Assembly (NCBI RefSeq): GCF_018977255.1
Contig: NW_024704756.1
Location: 17,174,001 to 17,238,000 of the forward strand
Direction of reading: 5' to 3'
Length of the DNA stretch: 64,000 nucleotides
From: Callorhinchus milii
Taxonomy: Eukaryota
Below are positions 17,701 to 38,700 of this stretch, piece by piece. A program made the position numbers. Positions within the stretch are counted from its first letter, which is position 1; each line of letters starts with the position of its first letter.

Positions 17701-20700
17701 ATGTTTTTTTTCCACTGAATACATGTCGCAGTCCTCACCTGTCATGTTAGTTGCATGTGTGTGTGTGTGCGCTGTGTGAGTGCAGTATGTTTAAAGACAT
17801 AGTTTTTTTTTCCTGTTGCAACTGGTTCTAATTCGATCAGAGCAAAAGACAAAACGTCCGTGTGTTTTGAAAAGAGTGCACTACTCAATTCTAACCCAGA
17901 TAGTCAGCGATAAACAGCCAGAAACAGTATCTCAACCATGCCAATAGGACATGATTAAAAATACTGACACATCCTTGAAAATAAACACAGATTTACTTTA
18001 CAGCCTCAACATTGCTCAATGCCAAGATCCACGTGATGGTTTGGCTTTGTTCCACTGCTTTGGGCTCCCTCAAATCAAGAGTTTCTGCATTCTTTATTTC
18101 CCCCCCCCCCCCCAAGATGGATTCACAAGCAATCGCAGTCCCCTATCCCATATTTGGCTCTGCGCCACAGTAACATCTGTCAGGGGTGCAGGCAGAAAGC
18201 AAATCCTTGATCCTCTCATTAACCGAGGAGCAGAAACAGCAGCTCTTAGATAATAATCCTTGCATTTGATATCATGCTTTCAAGACATCTCAAAGCACTT
18301 CATAGGATAAACTAAATTGTCTGTATTTTGTAGACATTTATTTATGAAAACAAGGGAGTCAATTCTTTACTTCATGGGAAAGGTTGATCTGGATGTTCCT
18401 GCACATCTGTCCACAGCAGCAGCTTCCTGCCAGCTGATGGGAATGTGTTCCTCTTGGTTAACCCTTTAAATGCTGAGATGGTCCTTTTTTTCAGTTTAGG
18501 TCACCAAATTGAAAAGATGGCCCAATCTAAGGTCTCCTCCACAGCCCTGGTTAGAAACACAGTGGCCAGAGCTACAACAACAACTTGCATTTATATAGCA
18601 ACCTTCACGCAGGGTATCATCCCAGAGCTCCACAGTGTGGCCCCACCAACACACTCAGAGAGCCTTAGTGCCTGTGGCTTGCCAGTGGATTAGACTGCAT
18701 TCCAACAGGCAGTGACTCCATCTATTGGTGATGCCCTAAACTTCTTCCTGCAAATAAGAGAAATTCAGGCTGCATCCATCACACTTTAGTGTGCACATTC
18801 CTCCAACAACAACAACAACAACAAGATTCCATTTGTAGAGCGCCTTTCACGTCAGGAGGACGTCCCAAGGCGCTCCAACCCTTCCCCCTATAGGGTGGCA
18901 CCTCATGCTGGCTACCACCAGCCTCAGGCTTCCCTGTGTGAGCCCCAAACTACAATTGTGCTGGGAATGGAGGGCATACCCAAGAACCAATATAGTGTAC
19001 TCCACCAGGGGCACTGCAATTCATCCGTTTCCCTACACCATGAGGGAAAGTTCCTGCAGGACCTGCTCCATTAACCTCAGCACAAAAACAAACTATTAAA
19101 CCCAGTAACAGTTCAAGGCAACAATGGACAATTGGTCCATCAAGCAACTCAGCCAACCTCAACTGTGTCAATGAGCACAGTGTTACACTGGAAACAAGCA
19201 AACCTGGTTCCTGCAATCAAGAACAACCACACCCTTTGCCTTCAGACCTCAAACCTCTGGAAAACTACAGAACAATTGATCCAAAGAGAATGTATGACAA
19301 TAATGAGACAATACACCTTCTGCAGCTCAATCTCGCCCAACCAGCCCAGGTGGGCAAAGGCCAACACTTCTCCAGATGGGAGGAAGGATAAAACATTACA
19401 GAGGAAAAAACAAACTTTATTTCTTTATAACACACTTTTTGCACATTGCTTCAATTACAGTTATATTACTGGATCAATGACTGAGCATCAACGGTGATTA
19501 AGGTGGCAAAACCTCCTGTACAAAAGTGACCATTTTACAAGGATTTAGAATAAACCCTAATAGATCAGACAATGGCAGCCAGCAATCCCCCACACCCCCT
19601 AGAATTTATTCTCACACACACACACGTAACTCAGAAGCTGCAGACCACTCATGAGATATTGTTCCAGAAACAGACAGTGATTAGATAGAAGATTAACACG
19701 ACAAAGTGGGGCAGTTCTCATGCCTCAAGCTGCGGAAGCTTTGTCACAAAATTGAACTACAGGAGTCAGGAAATTCCCAATAAAATTCTGAAAAGAACCA
19801 GAGATGTGTCTGCAGGGAACGGTGTGGTTCCAGACTCCAGGTCGGCAGCTTTTACTCCTGTCCAACACAAAACATAGCAGGATCTCAGGGTTACAATCAA
19901 TACGGGATGACAGCACCCATAAGATGGAATAGGAGCCACAGCAAGACTCCATCCTTCTTGCCTTTTGTTGTACTCATTAACAGCCAAGTCACACACATAC
20001 ATCACTTGTAAATAAATCCCCACAGTGACACCAAGAGATGGCAGAGATTAGGTCCCTGGTCTGCACACTTGGACACCAAGTCCTCATCCTCAACACAAGC
20101 TCACAGAGCCTCCCCCAAGGCTGATTTTGTGCTTGTATTGAATATTTGGCTTCAGATTATCCAAGATCTCCCTGAACCTTCTCACTAGTGTGAACATTCC
20201 ACCCGCCCACAAACAAGCACACGTGACAGGCATTGTGAGGGACAGGGAGTACATGTACATACTTTGACCTTTGGCTTTGCACCAACGAGGCTTTCTGCCT
20301 TTGCCGCCAACCTCACATCACTTGATCTCCTTCCAGGCGGCATCTCTCCTGCAACACAAAAAACAATGTTAGTAGACAGAGGAGTGTGTGGGTGCGATAA
20401 AGCTTGCGAGGCGAGTGCTCTAACCACTGAGCTGCAGGACTGCACGGTCAGAAACACACAATTTACTACAGAACAAGACTGAGCTGAGGTCATGAGGTCA
20501 GCATGGATCCTGAGACAAATAACCCAATATATTTCATTAACTACATTAATCACATTCCGATCATTGGAAGCTAGGACCTCTCTCAAACTCTACCCTGGAA
20601 AGCAAGCTGAGGTGAGCATAGATTTGTGCTCACTGGTGCTTTGGGTTGGACACCGTTGGTCTTTATTAAATACATTCACCTTTCCTTATTTAAAAAGAAA

Positions 20701-35700: not shown

Positions 35701-38700
35701 AGTCAATTCACTTTACAGCATATTCTGTGAAGCGCTTTCAGATGTCGAGAAGACGTGAAAAGCGCTATATCAAATGCAAGGATTATTATTATTATAGTCA
35801 ATGGGAACTGATGAATAGGAATGATGAGATTGAGAGCTTGTATCTCGCCTGCCCTGCAGGGGCCTGAGGGATCTGTGGGTCCTGCCTTGTTGACGTGTGC
35901 TACGGATCCTCTGATTGAAGGCTGAACGAGCTGCTCCTTTGTTTCAGGAACGTCTGGCCCTGTCCAGCATCTGATGCAGGAAAATGCGGCCCTGAAGCAG
36001 GAGAACGCTGCCCTCCGCCAGCAGCAGACACAGTGCTGCACACACCTGGAGACCATCGCAGCCCTGTGCTCCCGGATAGCAGCTCTCGAGGGGGAGATAG
36101 CCTCCCCCTAGCCCCCCAGGCTAAGAACCACTCCCTCACTGGCTCTCCTCGCCCCACATTCCCTATATTGTCCAGACGAGAGTTTGATCCTGTTCCCGCA
36201 TCGCTCAGCCCTCACCGTGTCAGAACCCGCTATTTATGGTCTTGTCTGTCTATTTTATTTAAAGTTCTATTTAAAAAGCTGCTAACTGGTATTAATCTCT
36301 GAATGGCTCTCGCGTGTACTGCGTTGAGGCGTGTGTGTCTGTGTGTGTGATTGTTTTTAGGGGAGGGAAATTGTCTGTTTATAATCTTCCTCTGTGTCAG
36401 AAAGTGCTTCAGGCTGCTGAACTTTTATCTAACGGTACTGAGTGCAGATTTACCACCGACGCGATTTTACTCTGATTAAGCTCCGCTGATGTTCTCGTGT
36501 GCGTGCTTTTATAAGATTTCTGAATAAAGTCTTTTTAATATTCCACTGTTTCCCTGTAATCTGTCCGGCAATGTGTTGTTTCCCTGCCACGTTTACTTTG
36601 GCCACATTATCCTCTCTACAATATTGCACGGAAGAACTTGCTTTACACGTACCACCGGTAACGTCTCTGAGCGCCTCCTAAGTTTTCACGGTTTAAGCAA
36701 AGGCACTGCTTCGTGAGTAGATGGTCTCTGTACGTTACCGTGAGGTGAGTGAGGCCTCCAGCGCGCCAATGGCACAATGCGGCGCTCCGCACGCCTCGGT
36801 TTACCCGGCAATAAGTAGGAACAGGTTGTTAGCCGATTGGCGGATCACTTTTCCATGGATAATAATCCCTTCATTTTTTTTAAAAAAAAAGAAATTGGTC
36901 ACCTCAACCCACGGCTGTTTGCGGGGACGCTGCTCTGGGCACGATTGGCTGCCGTGTTTCGCCCACAAAACATAGTCACTACACTTTACGGTCTATTCTG
37001 TGAGGCGCTTTGAGACGCCTCGAAAACCCGATGAGAGCCGCTGCACCAAATGCCAGGATTATTATTTAGTGTCTGACTTTGCGCTGCTCCTCACATAATT
37101 CACAGTCACTACACTTTACACTGAATCCTGTAACTGCACTTTACATCTGCAAAGGACTATTATTGTGGTTATTCCGGTGACTGAGTGAGTGTGAGGCAGT
37201 GAGAGTGTGTGTGTCTGTCTGTGAGTGTGTGAGTGTGACAGTGAGTGTGTGTGTCTGTCTGTGACTGTGTGAGTGTGACAGTGAGTGTGTGTGACAGTCA
37301 GTGAGTGTGTGTGTGAGTGTGAGTCTGTGAGAGTGTGTGTGTCTGTCTGTGAGTGTGAGAGTGTGACAGTGAGTGTGTGTGTCTGTCTGTGACTGAGTGT
37401 GAGAGTGTGACAGTGAATGTGTGTGACAGTCAGTGAGTGTGTGTGTGTGTGTGAGTCAGTGCCGTGTGTAGAGTCTCCCACACCCGCTGCCGCCCGCAGG
37501 TGTCATTCCAGCCGGGGCTGTGTGAGCGGGAGGTCGGGGCTGTGTGAGGCCGGGGCCGGGGGGTGTGGGTGGGAGGCCGGGGCTGTGTGAGGCCGGGGCC
37601 GGGGGGGTGTGGGTGGGAGGCCGGGGCTGTGTGAGCGGAAGCCGGGGCCGGGCGGTGTAAGGCCGGGGCGGTGTGAGGCCGGGGCCGGGCAGTGTGGGGC
37701 CGGGGCCGGGCGGTGTGAGGGGGGGGTCGGGGCGGTGTGAGCGGGAGGCCGGGGCCGGGCGGTGTGAGGCCGGGGCGGGGCGGTGTAAGGCCGGGGCCGG
37801 GCGGTGTGAGCGGGAGGCCGGGGGGGCCGGGCAGTGTAAGGCCGGGGGCGGGGCGGTGTGAGGCCGGGGCCGGGCGGTGTGAGGTCGGGGCCTGGCGGTG
37901 TGAGCGGGGGGTCGGGGCGGCGCGATGCCGAAGGTGGTATCGCGGAGTGTGGTTTGCTCGGACACTCGGGACCGGGAGGAGTACGACGACGGCGAGAAGC
38001 CGCTGCACGTGTATTACTGTCTGTGCGGTCAGATGGTGCTGGTGCTCGGTAAGGAGAGGCCGAGCGGGCCCGAGCCTCGGGCTCCAGTACGACCTCCCCC
38101 GGGGGAGGAGCGCCCCCCCCCCCCCCCCCCGGGCCCTGGGGCTGAGGGGCTGCTCTGAGCTCAGCGGAGAGAGAGAGCGAGAGAGAGAGAGCGCTGTAAT
38201 GATATCACAGTCCAGACGTCTCAAAGCGCTTCACGGAATATACCGTAAAGTGTAGTGACTGTGTGTTTTGTGGGTGAAACACGGATTGTCGGAGAGGCCG
38301 TCCGTCAGGACCTGACGCGTTGATCCCCGAGAGTCTGCGGCTCCGTCGGGGAAAGGGACGGGAGTTTGCCTCCCGAGGCGCTGTGTGGATGCGAGTTGTT
38401 GTTGTTGTTGTTGCTGTGCGCCTCCTGTGACTGACGGCGAACCCCCCCCTCCCCTCTCCCCCCCCCACCCCCCCCGACCTTTCAGATTGTCACCTGGAGA
38501 AGCTGCCCATGAGACCCCAGGACCGCGCGCGCGTCATCGACGCCTCCAAACACGCTCACAAGTTCTGCAACATTGAGGAAGATGAGAGCGTGTACCTTCG
38601 GAGGTGAGGGTCCTGTTTCCTGGGGGTGGGGGGAGAGACGTGGGGCATTCATTGGGAGGGGGCTCTGGTGCAAGACTTGGGGTGGGGGTTCCTGCAAATG

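What the first reader, a model, noticed from the sequence alone, without database searches (positions are those of the whole stretch)
20185..36111. Head-to-head pair of diverged, unrecognised paralogues on one promoter
Seen: genes A (-) and B (+) diverge from ~28.2 kb and share an architecture. Each has one giant exon ending in E at phase 0. Each has a 151-bp phase 0->1 exon ending KPAGHGHL-G (A, 21616-21766) or KPAGSSHA-G (B, 33764-33914). A phase 1->1 exon of 144 or 141 bp follows, ending PKRFKMA-G or PKRSKLA-G, and the next exon starts GE in both. The giant exons share ordered motifs: RRFSS/RRFST, LDFFE..EWFPCRASTPL (A 23676-23708) vs LNCFE..EWIPCFMSTPL (B 32785-32817), GARRK, and G[LV]PKP. 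The rest does not align by eye. Inference: an old inverted duplication of a fast-evolving gene, with both copies kept intact and possibly co-regulated. I recognise no named family.
Basis: partly seen in the sequence, partly recalled or inferred. Interest (0 to 1): 0.8.

Follow-up and report, generated by a model that had tools for sequence, protein, structure and literature searches.

The report
Diverged head-to-head paralogue pair, elephant shark
Two neighbouring elephant-shark genes on opposite strands are old, very diverged copies of one gene; they encode long, mostly unstructured proteins of unknown family, so the pair is real but a fairly ordinary lineage-restricted gene family.

Summary
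The window is Callorhinchus milii. Gene A (-) and gene B (+) match database models LOC103179179 (946 aa) and LOC103179184 (1407 aa), both named "uncharacterized".

- **Paralogy:** the giant exons align over about 300 residues, score 105 against about 52 +/- 7.5 for shuffles, 0 of 500 reaching it. Each is the other's only cross-hit in the window.
  - A has two extra coding exons and an upstream ATG exon.
  - B carries six to seven 80-aa tandem repeats, which account for its extra length.
  - B ends in a seven-heptad leucine zipper that A lacks.
  - A third paralogue, LOC103189208 (69-79% identical to A, depending on the call), lies elsewhere in the genome.
- **Family:** no named family was found in Pfam, PDB sequences, three word-indexed searches or a 1.84-billion-protein HMMER profile search. 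Those searches could not have detected A-B-level divergence.
- **Structure:** AlphaFold2 finds no fold in the conserved block (pLDDT 37).
- **Promoter:** a shared promoter at about 28.1-28.4 kb is plausible (CpG-rich, two CCAAT boxes) but untested.

Interest is modest.

The parts
26237..26280 (-). Gene A: small exon carrying the start codon (ATG 26246-26248, MDQC). It is preceded by an AG acceptor, so at least one 5' exon lies further upstream.
   Evidence: P0004 mapping.
23232..25388 (-). Gene A: giant exon, 2157 bp (719 codons), AG/GT flanked, ends ...GGAE in phase 0.
24756..24860 (-). Gene A: the only confidently predicted structured element in its N-terminal 230 residues, a 35-residue amphipathic helix (P0004 residues 181-215). 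It is conserved in the third paralogue.
   Evidence: 10-residue blocks with pLDDT 77-86; everything else below 50.
24579..24708 (-). Gene A: perfect in-frame 33-bp tandem repeat, 3.9 copies (SASPAAVPKRE units). It is absent from the third paralogue, so it is a recent expansion.
23244..24155 (-). Gene A: C-terminal third of the giant exon, which aligns with B. It contains LDFFE, EWFPCRASTPL, GARRK and GLPKP.
22667..22835 (-). Gene A: 169-bp exon, phase 0->1, with no counterpart in B.
22426..22541 (-). Gene A: 116-bp exon, phase 1->0, with no counterpart in B.
21616..21766 (-). Gene A: 151-bp exon, phase 0->1, ends KPAGHGHL-G.
20766..20909 (-). Gene A: 144-bp exon, phase 1->1, ends PKRFKMA-G.
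20263..20348 (-). Gene A: 86-bp exon ((G)EMPPGRRSS...KPKVK), followed by a GTATGT donor. The last residue and the stop of the database model lie on an exon I could not locate. Read-through would stop at 20185.
28000..28600 (.). Candidate shared (bidirectional) promoter. It is the only CpG-rich patch between the two genes, with CCAAT boxes in both orientations (about 28125 and 28258), a GTGAGC donor-like site on the + strand (about 28367) and GTGAGT-like sites on the - strand (about 28060-28085). It is flanked by a (TCTG)n microsatellite and SINE-like copies. Promoter function is inferred, not shown.
29713..33324 (+). Gene B: coding part of the giant exon, 3612 bp (1204 codons). It runs from the ATG to ...VSSE in phase 0, with a GTAAGT donor.
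30871..32337 (+). Gene B: array of six strong tandem repeats plus one partial repeat of about 80 aa (core DDLNKTTILSxCPxDL), P0003 residues 387-875. A and the third paralogue have none. Its size, about 490 aa, roughly matches the length difference between the giant exons (485 codons).
32374..33285 (+). Gene B: part of the giant exon that aligns with A. It contains LNCFE, EWIPCFMSTPL, GARRK and GVPKP.
33764..33914 (+). Gene B: 151-bp exon, phase 0->1, ends KPAGSSHA-G.
34363..34503 (+). Gene B: 141-bp exon, phase 1->1, ends PKRSKLA-G.
34863..34975 (+). Gene B: 113-bp exon, phase 1->0, starts (G)EVKAIE.
35391..35433 (+). Gene B: 43-bp exon, phase 0->1.
35948..36111 (+). Gene B: last exon, encoding a seven-heptad leucine zipper (d positions L,L,L,C,I,I,I; Asn at two a positions), then stop TAG 36109-36111. 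It contains a 21-bp (one heptad) tandem duplication at 35971-36014.

Best explanation
A and B are two intact protein-coding genes of the elephant shark. They match the database models LOC103179179 and LOC103179184. They descend from one ancestral gene by an old inverted duplication, and they belong to a family of at least three genes that so far is seen only in this species.

**Shown**
- The proteins share a charge plan: a basic N-terminus with an RRFS[ST] site, an acidic middle, and a basic C-terminal 250-300 residues.
- They share a collinear set of short conserved blocks (LxxFE, EWxPCxxSTPL, GARRK, G[LV]PKP, KPAG, PKRxKxAGE) and exon boundaries in the same phases.
- Apart from one helix in A and the C-terminal zipper in B, the two stretches that I folded are predicted to have no fixed fold.

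**Inferred (about 0.3)**
- They act as nuclear, multivalent adaptor or scaffold proteins whose function sits in short linear motifs.
  - PKRxKxA and GARRK would serve as nuclear-import signals.
  - RRFS would serve as a basophilic-kinase site.
- B became dimeric through its parallel leucine zipper. It became more multivalent through six to seven tandem 80-aa repeats.
- A instead kept or gained two basic exons and an internal amphipathic helix.

**Inferred (about 0.5)**
- The two genes are transcribed divergently from the CpG-rich, CCAAT-box region at about 28.1-28.4 kb.
For: **Identity of the genes**
- The giant-exon ORFs retrieve 100%-identical Callorhinchus milii models, P0003 (1407 aa) and P0004 (946 aa).
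- Both models map back to the window with canonical splice sites. The coding exon lengths sum to 1408 codons for B and 945 codons for A, plus one unlocated residue.

**Paralogy**
- Giant exons: score 105 against about 52 (sd 7-8) for shuffles, 0 of 500 reaching it under two shuffling schemes.
- BLASTP E=6e-5.
- Reciprocal and unique tblastn hits within the window.
- 61 invariant columns over the 275-residue B block when aligned with A and the third paralogue.
- Five motifs in the same order.
- Identical 151-bp exons in phase 0->1, then 144/141-bp exons in phase 1->1.
- Without the C-terminal ~300 residues, the rest of the giant exons still scores 76 against 44.8 (sd 6.6), 0 of 300.

**Real coding genes**
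- 0 in-frame stops in 719 and 1204 codons, against 7-111 stops in the other frames.
- Identity between A and the third paralogue is higher in the half that is also conserved with B: 80-88% for most 40-aa windows between 481 and 920, against 28-78% for windows 1-480.

**Disorder**
- AlphaFold2 on the conserved block gives mean pLDDT 37.2 and pTM 0.15.
- On A's N-terminal 230 residues it gives mean pLDDT 41.2, with one helix at 177-211 (pLDDT 77-86).

**Charge plan:**

**Repeats:** six strong units plus a partial seventh in B, and none in A or A' at E<=10.

**Zipper**
- Two copies of B's last exon score 0.32 (ipSAE, median of 3 runs). The best of 3 controls scores 0.00.
- The runs agree in at least 100% of their contacts, and the partner's pLDDT is at least 84.
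- Contacts are in register (22-22, 19-19, 36-36 ...), i.e. a parallel dimer.
- Calibration counts:
  - The mark was reached by 21 of 30 proteins solved as pairs of one chain and by 0 of 23 solved as single chains.
  - On eukaryotes it was reached by 17 of 29 (animals 7 of 16), but by only 1 of the 7 with no older solved relative.
  - It was reached by 0 of 30 eukaryotic single chains.
- Leucine zippers are abundantly solved, so this pass may reflect likeness to solved structures rather than binding.

**Promoter region:**
Against: - **Function rests on sequence features only.** There is no expression, localisation or interaction evidence.
- **The short motifs are not specific.** NLS-like, kinase-site-like and D-box-like motifs (RPPLKDARN in B only) occur often by chance in long disordered proteins.
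- **Low pLDDT is ambiguous.** With a 2-3 sequence alignment it can reflect the shallow alignment rather than disorder.
- **The zipper score sits exactly at the mark** (0.32), and this class of interface can pass from memory.
- **The small exons are not individually significant** (73 of 2000; 258 of 5000).
- **'Only in this species' is weak.** By my rough estimate, E<=0.001 against 1.84 billion proteins needs about 41 bits. A and B themselves share only about 34 bits. An orthologue as diverged as A is from B would therefore be invisible.
- **No vertebrate genome collection was available** for a synteny-guided search.
- **No TSS data.** A's ATG exon is 3.4 kb from B's ATG, and separate promoters are equally possible.
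Confidence: 0.6

Rival explanations
1. The family is not lineage-restricted. A and B would be fast-evolving orthologues or co-orthologues of a gene present across jawed vertebrates in the ancestral OPHN1-STEEP1-HSF (proto-X) neighbourhood, and the link is hidden by homology-detection failure. This is compatible with the paralogy and changes only the naming and the novelty.
For: - **The searches were blind at this depth.** A and B share only 32-34 bits, whereas whole-database significance needs roughly 41 bits by my estimate.
- **The proteins are disordered** and change quickly. A recent perfect 33-bp repeat in A is absent from its 69-79%-identical paralogue.
- **Language-model look-alikes.** For B these are chordate clusters: the first hit scores 0.90 with 181 of 256 shared features ('hypothetical protein', 98 members), followed by CXorf49 / DUF4641 clusters at 0.76 and 0.75.
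- **Conserved neighbours.** The flanking genes are conserved vertebrate genes.
- **Published precedent.** PMC7660931 argues in its title and abstract that many lineage-specific genes are explained by homology-detection failure. I saw only the search listing and the start of the abstract.
Against: - No Pfam family at E<=1 for A, A' or B beyond chance-level hits. DUF4641 is not among them.
- The HMMER profile search of 1.84 billion representatives returned only the family itself: 2 of 2 hits.
- Three word-indexed searches, one of them at E<=10, returned only A, A' and B.
- The look-alikes for A do not repeat the CXorf49 lead: best score 0.84, no shared family, and recognition 1101, well below the 2300 that 91 in 100 proteins of known families reach.
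- Scores under 0.9 are leads only, and 0.9 is reached by 4-10 in 100 shuffled proteins.
Confidence: 0.3
2. The two genes are neighbours with separate promoters and independent regulation. The head-to-head layout would be only a by-product of the inverted duplication.
For: - The known coding starts are 3.4 kb apart: A's ATG exon ends at 26280 and B's ATG is at 29713.
- The interval holds SINE-like insertions and a microsatellite.
- No non-coding duplicated sequence survives between the loci beyond interspersed repeats.
- The two proteins have diverged strongly in architecture, as expected after sub- or neofunctionalisation.
Against: - A's ATG exon has an acceptor site, so its first exon lies further towards B.
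- The only CpG-rich patch in 25.6-29.6 kb is at 27.6-28.6 kb (CpG o/e 0.68-0.83, against 0.46 for the whole window). It carries CCAAT boxes in both orientations and donor-like sites on both strands within about 300 bp.
Confidence: 0.4
3. The resemblance is convergent. On this view, compositional bias of two unrelated disordered proteins, or annotation artefacts or pseudogenes, produce an apparent pair.
For: - Both proteins are rich in S, P, A, G and L.
- Each small exon alone is not significantly similar to its counterpart.
- Both database records are computational predictions ('PREDICTED').
Against: - Shuffling within 40-aa windows, which keeps local composition, still gives 0 of 500 scores at or above the observed one.
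- Five motifs lie in the same order.
- Exon length and phase are identical for two consecutive exons.
- Frames of 719 and 1204 codons are open, against 7-111 stops in the other frames.
- The conservation profile between A and its close paralogue peaks in the same region that is conserved with B.
Confidence: 0.03

Closest known systems
Database models 'uncharacterized protein LOC103179179', 'LOC103179184' and 'LOC103189208' of Callorhinchus milii (P0004, P0003, P0005)
   Same: P0004 and P0003 are the two genes of the finding, 100% identical to the window's giant exons and mapping exon by exon. P0005 is a third family member of A type. It has the same start (MDQCGEGVR) and the same end (KPKVKE) as A.
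   Different: The records carry no family, domain or function. The A-B relationship, the repeat array, the zipper and the shared exon phases are not stated in the names I could see. A full-text search for the three LOC identifiers found 0 papers.
[quoted passage not shown]
   Same: It is an unnamed-function family linked to the X-conserved gene set, and it is present as an inverted duplicate. Language-model features place clusters of this family second and third among B's look-alikes, at 0.76 and 0.75.
   Different: There is no Pfam match at E<=1 for A, A' or B. The lead is not repeated with A. The scores are below the tool's own threshold for a lead. The listed clusters are about 400-520 aa, against 946-1407 aa here. 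The human copies are near-identical palindrome arms, whereas A and B are ancient and about 30% identical only in their best block. I do not file A and B under this family.
Parallel dimeric leucine zippers (GCN4 / bZIP-type dimerisation helices)
   Same: B's last exon has seven heptads with L/I/C at the d positions and Asn at two a positions. It is modelled as an in-register parallel dimer: 0.32 against a best control of 0.00 (counts are given in the For line). Its nearest PDB sequences are designed coiled coils, best E=0.0027.
   Different: There is no basic DNA-binding region before the zipper. The preceding residues are NKNLENVKPEELGPRTSGPVQH. The Pfam bZIP_2 match is 11.7 bits against a cut-off of 22.3. 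It therefore works like a zipper dimeriser but is not a bZIP transcription factor.
Giant-exon, repeat-bearing disordered scaffolds such as BRCA2 (BRC repeats), KNL1 (MELT repeats) and MDC1. This is an analogy recalled from general knowledge and was not tested here.
   Same: One very large exon encodes a disordered region with a diverged tandem array of a short conserved core. B has six to seven such units. Function there lies in repeated short binding motifs.
   Different: There is no sequence similarity to any of them in Pfam or in PDB sequences. The ligand of B's repeat is unknown. This is only an analogy for how B might work.

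Membership tests
DUF4641 / CXorf49 (PF15483) | Match to the Pfam model at or above its gathering score | tested here: not met
   hmmscan at E<=1 on the giant-exon ORFs and on P0003, P0004 and P0005 does not list PF15483. HMMER's filters drop most matches above E of about 0.1, so a very weak match cannot be excluded.
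DUF4641 / CXorf49 (PF15483) | Orthologous genomic position relative to the mammalian gene | not testable with these tools
   No vertebrate genome collection was available. The window shows only OPHN1-like, STEEP1 and HSF-type neighbours.
bZIP transcription factors | Basic DNA-binding region directly N-terminal to the leucine zipper (Pfam bZIP_1 / bZIP_2) | tested here: not met
   bZIP_2 scores 11.7 bits (E=0.28) against a cut-off of 22.3, and only over the zipper part of the profile (positions 34-54). The residues before the zipper are neutral to acidic.
Leucine-zipper coiled-coil dimerisation module (structural class) | Heptad repeat with hydrophobic a/d positions over at least 4 heptads, forming a parallel dimer | tested here: met
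   Seven heptads are read directly from the sequence. The homodimer model is in register and scores 0.32 against a best control of 0.00, with partner pLDDT of at least 84. This is a model only and may be passing from memory.
Bidirectional-promoter gene pair | Opposite strands with 5' ends facing each other | tested here: met
   A is on the - strand with its 5' end above 26280. B is on the + strand with its ATG at 29713.
Bidirectional-promoter gene pair | Transcription start sites less than about 1 kb apart (the usual definition, recalled), with co-expression | not testable with these tools
   No transcript or CAGE data were available. The sequence offers only a CpG-rich, CCAAT-bearing candidate at 28.0-28.6 kb.
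AMER / WTX (PF09422) and CKAP2_C (PF15297), low-scoring look-alikes of A | Match to the Pfam model | tested here: not met
   Both appear only at 0.78 in the feature search. Pfam finds 0 families in P0004 and P0005 at E<=1.
Paralogues by inverted duplication (A with B) | Significant collinear protein similarity plus shared intron positions and phases | tested here: met
   Searches support the similarity. One search shows the shared exons: 151 bp in phase 0->1, then 144/141 bp in phase 1->1, with the next exon starting (G)E.

The most novel reading that the evidence does not exclude
A, B and LOC103189208 may be the cartilaginous-fish survivors of an old jawed-vertebrate gene of the proto-X (OPHN1-STEEP1-HSF) neighbourhood. 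Its bony-vertebrate descendants would have diverged beyond sequence recognition. One candidate is the X-linked, testis-expressed, palindrome-borne CXorf49 family. On this reading an 'orphan' mammalian X gene would gain a 450-million-year history. It would also mean that a disordered, motif-based protein has repeatedly been kept as inverted duplicates that are possibly co-regulated.
Probability: 0.08. Interest if true: 0.55.

Novelty: new member of a known kind. Interest (0 to 1): 0.3.

Why it matters
The finding adds a defined, testable family to the many 'uncharacterized LOC' genes of the elephant shark, a reference genome for early jawed vertebrates.

The family consists of three genes and is defined by:
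- shared exon phases;
- six short motif blocks;
- a B-specific repeat array and a B-specific zipper.

It is also a clean example of how far two duplicates of a disordered protein can drift. Identity is about 30% in the best block and nothing is recognisable elsewhere, yet intron positions and a handful of linear motifs are kept. That makes it useful for calibrating homology-detection failure.

It does not bear on a long-standing open question, and head-to-head paralogue pairs are common. Its value would rise only if a link to a bony-vertebrate gene, or coupled function of the two proteins, were shown.

Tried and rejected
**Family searches that found nothing**
- Pfam on the giant-exon ORFs and on the three database proteins gave only chance-level hits: DUF424, ZapB and bZIP_2, all below their cut-offs.
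- PDB sequence search:
  - 0 hits for B.
  - One hit at E=0.17 for A.
  - Only designed coiled coils for the zipper exon.
- Three word-indexed protein searches returned only A, A' and B (the last at E<=10 on A's conserved C-terminal half).
- A HMMER profile of A, A' and B against 1.84 billion representatives returned only A' and B.

**Language-model look-alikes**
- The CXorf49 / DUF4641 lead for B (0.76 and 0.75) is not repeated for A. I rejected it as a family assignment and kept it only as a lead.

**Structure**
- AlphaFold2 on the conserved block gave no fold (pLDDT 37.2). I therefore ran no fold search, because matches to such a model would be meaningless.

**Looking for B-specific or A-specific parts in the other gene**
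- A zipper exon downstream of A: the best non-self tblastn hit of B's last exon anywhere in the window has E=0.80, and it lies in the OPHN1-like gene. Part of that output was cut from view.
- B's repeat unit in A and A': no hit at E<=10.
- A counterpart of A's two extra exons in B: none at E<=0.5.

**Other**
- The RRFS region alone is not significant: 398 of 3000 shuffles reach the observed score.
- One shuffle test (144/141-bp exons) used a wrong reading frame. I discarded it and repeated it correctly.
- Literature:
  - 0 papers for the LOC identifiers.
  - 0 papers for Callorhinchus together with OPHN1.

- Searching vertebrate genomes.
- dN/dS, because no DNA of LOC103189208 was available.
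- Any transcript evidence.

**Exon joining**
Small exons were compared one by one, and whole-protein comparisons used the database records by their ids.

Full report
**Source and setting.**
- The window is 64,000 bases with two N runs, 7037-7340 and 8213-8348. I left the N runs as they are.
- The two giant open frames of the finding are 23154-25442 (-) and 29599-33342 (+). Searched one exon at a time, they returned 100%-identical database proteins of the elephant shark Callorhinchus milii.
  - P0003 is 'uncharacterized protein LOC103179184', 1407 aa. It was 1 hit among 7999 scored candidates.
  - P0004 is 'uncharacterized protein LOC103179179 isoform X2', 946 aa.
  - P0005 is 'LOC103189208', 920 aa, 69% identical to A. 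P0004 and P0005 were the 2 hits among 8000 scored candidates.
- The contig is therefore not human.
Small exons were compared one by one, and whole-protein comparisons used these database records by id.

**Neighbours.**
- I scanned 401 of the 700 stop-to-stop frames of at least 40 aa outside the finding. Low-entropy frames and the shorter ones were dropped.
- To the left, on the minus strand, there is a BAR_3 match (5199-5642, E=9e-10) and two RhoGAP matches (1015-1638, E=8.4e-5; 77-349, E=0.0038). This is an OPHN1-type gene running off the left edge.
- To the right, on the plus strand, there are three STEEP1-domain exons (37904-39866; E from 1.3e-8 to 4.9e-6). After them comes an HSF-type gene (44503-47672: HSF_DNA-bind E=8.5e-12 and 2.4e-4, Vert_HS_TF E=4.8e-4).

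**Gene structures.**
- Mapping the two models to the window and reading the borders gives canonical AG/GT sites throughout.
- Gene A (-), exons in order:
  - ATG exon 26237-26280. An acceptor precedes it, so a 5' exon lies further upstream.
  - Giant exon 23232-25388.
  - 22667-22835 (169 bp).
  - 22426-22541 (116 bp).
  - 21616-21766 (151 bp).
  - 20766-20909 (144 bp).
  - 20263-20348, which is followed by a GTATGT donor. The final residue and the stop of the model lie on an exon I could not place.
- Gene B (+), exons in order:
  - Giant exon, coding from 29713 to 33324.
  - 33764-33914 (151 bp).
  - 34363-34503 (141 bp).
  - 34863-34975.
  - 35391-35433.
  - 35948-36111.
- The exon lengths sum to 1408 codons for B. 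For A they sum to 945 codons plus the one unlocated residue. Both totals fit the database lengths.

**Check of the observation.**
  - Both giant exons end in E at phase 0.
  - Both 151-bp exons are phase 0->1 and end KPAGHGHL-G and KPAGSSHA-G.
  - The 144- and 141-bp exons are phase 1->1 and end PKRFKMA-G and PKRSKLA-G.
  - The next exon starts (G)E in both genes.
- The five motifs sit at the stated coordinates, in the same order in both genes.
  - A's two extra coding exons;
  - A's ATG exon;
  - B's internal repeats;
  - B's C-terminal zipper;
  - the third paralogue.

**Is the similarity more than chance?**
- The local alignment score of the two giant exons is 105. Shuffling B globally gives 51.3 +/- 7.2, and shuffling within 40-aa windows gives 53.7 +/- 8.0. 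In each case 0 of 500 shuffles reach 105. An earlier run gave 0 of 200.
- The alignment covers about 300 residues at the C-terminal ends of both giant exons.
- BLASTP gives E=2e-4 and E=6e-5.
- A tblastn of each giant exon against the whole window finds only the other gene: E=0.002 and E=0.005.
- Aligned with the third paralogue, 61 columns of the 275-residue B block are invariant.
- With the C-terminal ~300 residues removed, the remaining parts still score 76 against 44.8 +/- 6.6, with 0 of 300 shuffles reaching it. That alignment is long and low in identity, and regional composition may contribute to it.
- The small exons and the RRFS region are not significant alone: 73 of 2000, 258 of 5000 and 398 of 3000. 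They count through identical length, identical phase and the exon-end peptides.
- I conclude that A and B are true paralogues. My confidence is about 0.95.

**Are they real genes?**
- The giant exons have 0 in-frame stops in 719 and 1204 codons. The five other frames hold 7-37 stops for A and 21-111 for B.
- Identity between A and the third paralogue is 73% overall. It is 80-88% in most 40-aa windows between residues 481 and 920, and 28-78% in windows 1-480. The better-kept half is the one also conserved with B, which points to constraint on the shared blocks.
- I could not compute dN/dS because I had no DNA for the third paralogue.

**What differs between A and B.**
- B holds six strong tandem units of about 80 aa, plus a partial seventh. 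Their core is DDLNKTTILSxCPxDL, and they span residues 387-875.
  - The six strong units match the model by construction, because it was built from them.
  - The partial seventh has i-E 3.2e-4.
  - A and A' have no match at E<=10.
- The array is about 490 aa long, roughly equal to the length difference between the giant exons (1204 - 719 = 485 codons).
- At DNA level the units are 62-78% alike. One 183-nt stretch recurs 486 nt away at 77% identity, which suggests a two-unit block duplication.
- B ends in a seven-heptad leucine zipper with d positions L,L,L,C,I,I,I and Asn at two a positions. It includes a 21-bp, one-heptad tandem duplication.
- Two copies of this exon are modelled as an in-register parallel dimer.
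  - The score is 0.32 and the best of 3 controls is 0.00.
  - The runs agree in at least 100% of their contacts, and the partner's pLDDT is at least 84.
  - The mark was reached by 21 of 30 proteins solved as pairs of one chain and by 0 of 23 solved as single chains.
  - On eukaryotes it was reached by 17 of 29 (animals 7 of 16), but by only 1 of the 7 with no older solved relative, and by 0 of 30 single chains.
  - Zippers are abundantly solved, so this pass may show likeness only.
- A and A' both end ...KPKVKE and have no zipper.
- A instead has two extra basic exons and a 35-residue helix. That helix is the only confident element in its N-terminal 230 residues (pLDDT 77-86, against a mean of 41.2).
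- A also has a perfect 3.9-copy 33-bp in-frame repeat that A' lacks.

**What kind of protein?**
- The conserved block has no predicted fold: mean pLDDT 37.2, pTM 0.15, from a three-sequence alignment.
- Both proteins share a charge plan of basic N-terminus, acidic middle and basic C-terminal 250-300 residues.
- They carry basic clusters (KRRR, PKRFK/PKRSK, GARRK) and an RRFS[ST] site.
- I infer, at about 0.3, a nuclear, motif-driven adaptor or scaffold. B would be dimeric and multivalent.
- This inference rests on sequence features only.

**Family assignment.**
- Pfam gave nothing above chance.
- PDB sequences gave nothing.
- The HMMER profile search of 1,835,955,588 representatives found only A' and B at E<=0.001.
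- The third word-indexed search, at E<=10, found only A and A' among 7996 candidates.
- By my rough estimate, significance against such libraries needs about 41 bits. A and B share about 34 bits. Orthologues as diverged as A is from B would therefore have been missed, and 'found only in this species' is weak evidence of lineage restriction.
- Language-model look-alikes gave chordate clusters of unnamed proteins.
  - B's first hit scored 0.90 with 181 of 256 shared features. This may be its own cluster.
  - CXorf49 / DUF4641 followed at 0.76 and 0.75 for B.
  - A did not repeat that lead: best score 0.84 and recognition 1101.
- CXorf49 is described as an uncharacterized testis-expressed family in a human X palindrome (PMC8327919, passages read). 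I keep it as a lead only.

**Promoter.**
- Between A's ATG exon and B's ATG, the only CpG-rich stretch is 27.6-28.6 kb. Its CpG o/e is 0.68-0.83 and its GC reaches 0.57, against a whole-window o/e of 0.46.
- It holds an inverted CCAAT box at about 28125 and a forward one at about 28258. It also has a GAG|GTGAGC site on the + strand at about 28367 and GTGAGT-type sites on the - strand at about 28060-28085.
- It is bordered by a (TCTG)n array and SINE-like copies.
Without transcripts it remains an inference, at about 0.5.

**Verdict.**
- This is a real, ancient, head-to-head paralogue pair. It belongs to a family of at least three genes that encode largely disordered proteins with no recognisable relatives.
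- The genes already match database models named 'uncharacterized'. I found no paper that names them.
- It is a new member of a known kind and of modest interest.

**What stayed unchecked.**
- Other vertebrate genomes. No such collection was open.
- The metagenome and viral collections, which are closed.
- Transcript evidence.
- dN/dS.

Noticed in passing
window 77-5642 (-), probably extending to about 19 kb: An OPHN1-type gene (BAR_3 E=9e-10; RhoGAP E=8.4e-5 and 0.0038) runs off the left edge of the window on the same strand as gene A. The two N runs (7037-7340, 8213-8348) lie inside it and were left untouched.
   Followed up: partly
window 37904-39866 (+): STEEP1 gene: three exon-sized frames match the Pfam STEEP1 domain (E=3.8e-6, 1.3e-8, 4.9e-6). 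It starts about 1.8 kb after the stop of gene B.
   Followed up: partly
window 44503-47672 (+): A heat-shock-factor-type gene: HSF_DNA-bind E=8.5e-12 and 2.4e-4, Vert_HS_TF E=4.8e-4. Which HSF paralogue it is was not determined.
   Followed up: no
window 51791-52642 (+): A 284-aa open frame with a weak DDE_3 transposase match (E=9.5e-4, below the cut-off). It is possibly a decayed Tc1/mariner-like element.
   Followed up: no
window 59527-59889 (+): A weak FYVE_2 (rabphilin / synaptotagmin-like type) match, E=0.0017, below the cut-off. It may be the first exon of another gene near the right edge.
   Followed up: no
window 20402-20448, 21333-21440, 21994-22162, 27710-27915, 28421-28487, 28747-28839, 29178-29260, 33390-33733, 35486-35803: Many copies, in both orientations, of one interspersed repeat. 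It has a tRNA-like head and a conserved core (...GTGAAGCGCTTTGAGA...AAGGCGCTATATCAAATGCAAGGATTATTATT). The copies lie in the introns of A and B and on both sides of the candidate promoter. It looks like a SINE; the family name was not determined.
   Followed up: partly
window about 8.0-10.0 kb, 16.0-17.4 kb, 42.0-44.0 kb, 56.0-57.2 kb: Blocks with extreme strand skew (GC skew down to -0.57; AT skew from -0.38 to +0.40) and long open frames in several frames at once. This pattern suggests long simple or low-complexity repeats. They were not analysed.
   Followed up: no
window 27950-28055: A (TCTG)n microsatellite with about 27 imperfect copies, overlaid by 23-27-bp periodicities. It directly abuts the CpG-rich candidate promoter between A and B.
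   Followed up: no
window 35971-36014 (+): A 21-bp tandem duplication (2.1 copies) inside B's zipper exon. It encodes exactly one heptad (LKQENAA), so the zipper grew by a heptad-sized duplication.
   Followed up: partly
window 29836-29862 (+), P0003 residues 42-50: B, but not A, has a sequence fitting the canonical destruction-box pattern RxxLxxxxN (RPPLKDARN) in its basic N-terminus. It may well be there by chance.
   Followed up: no
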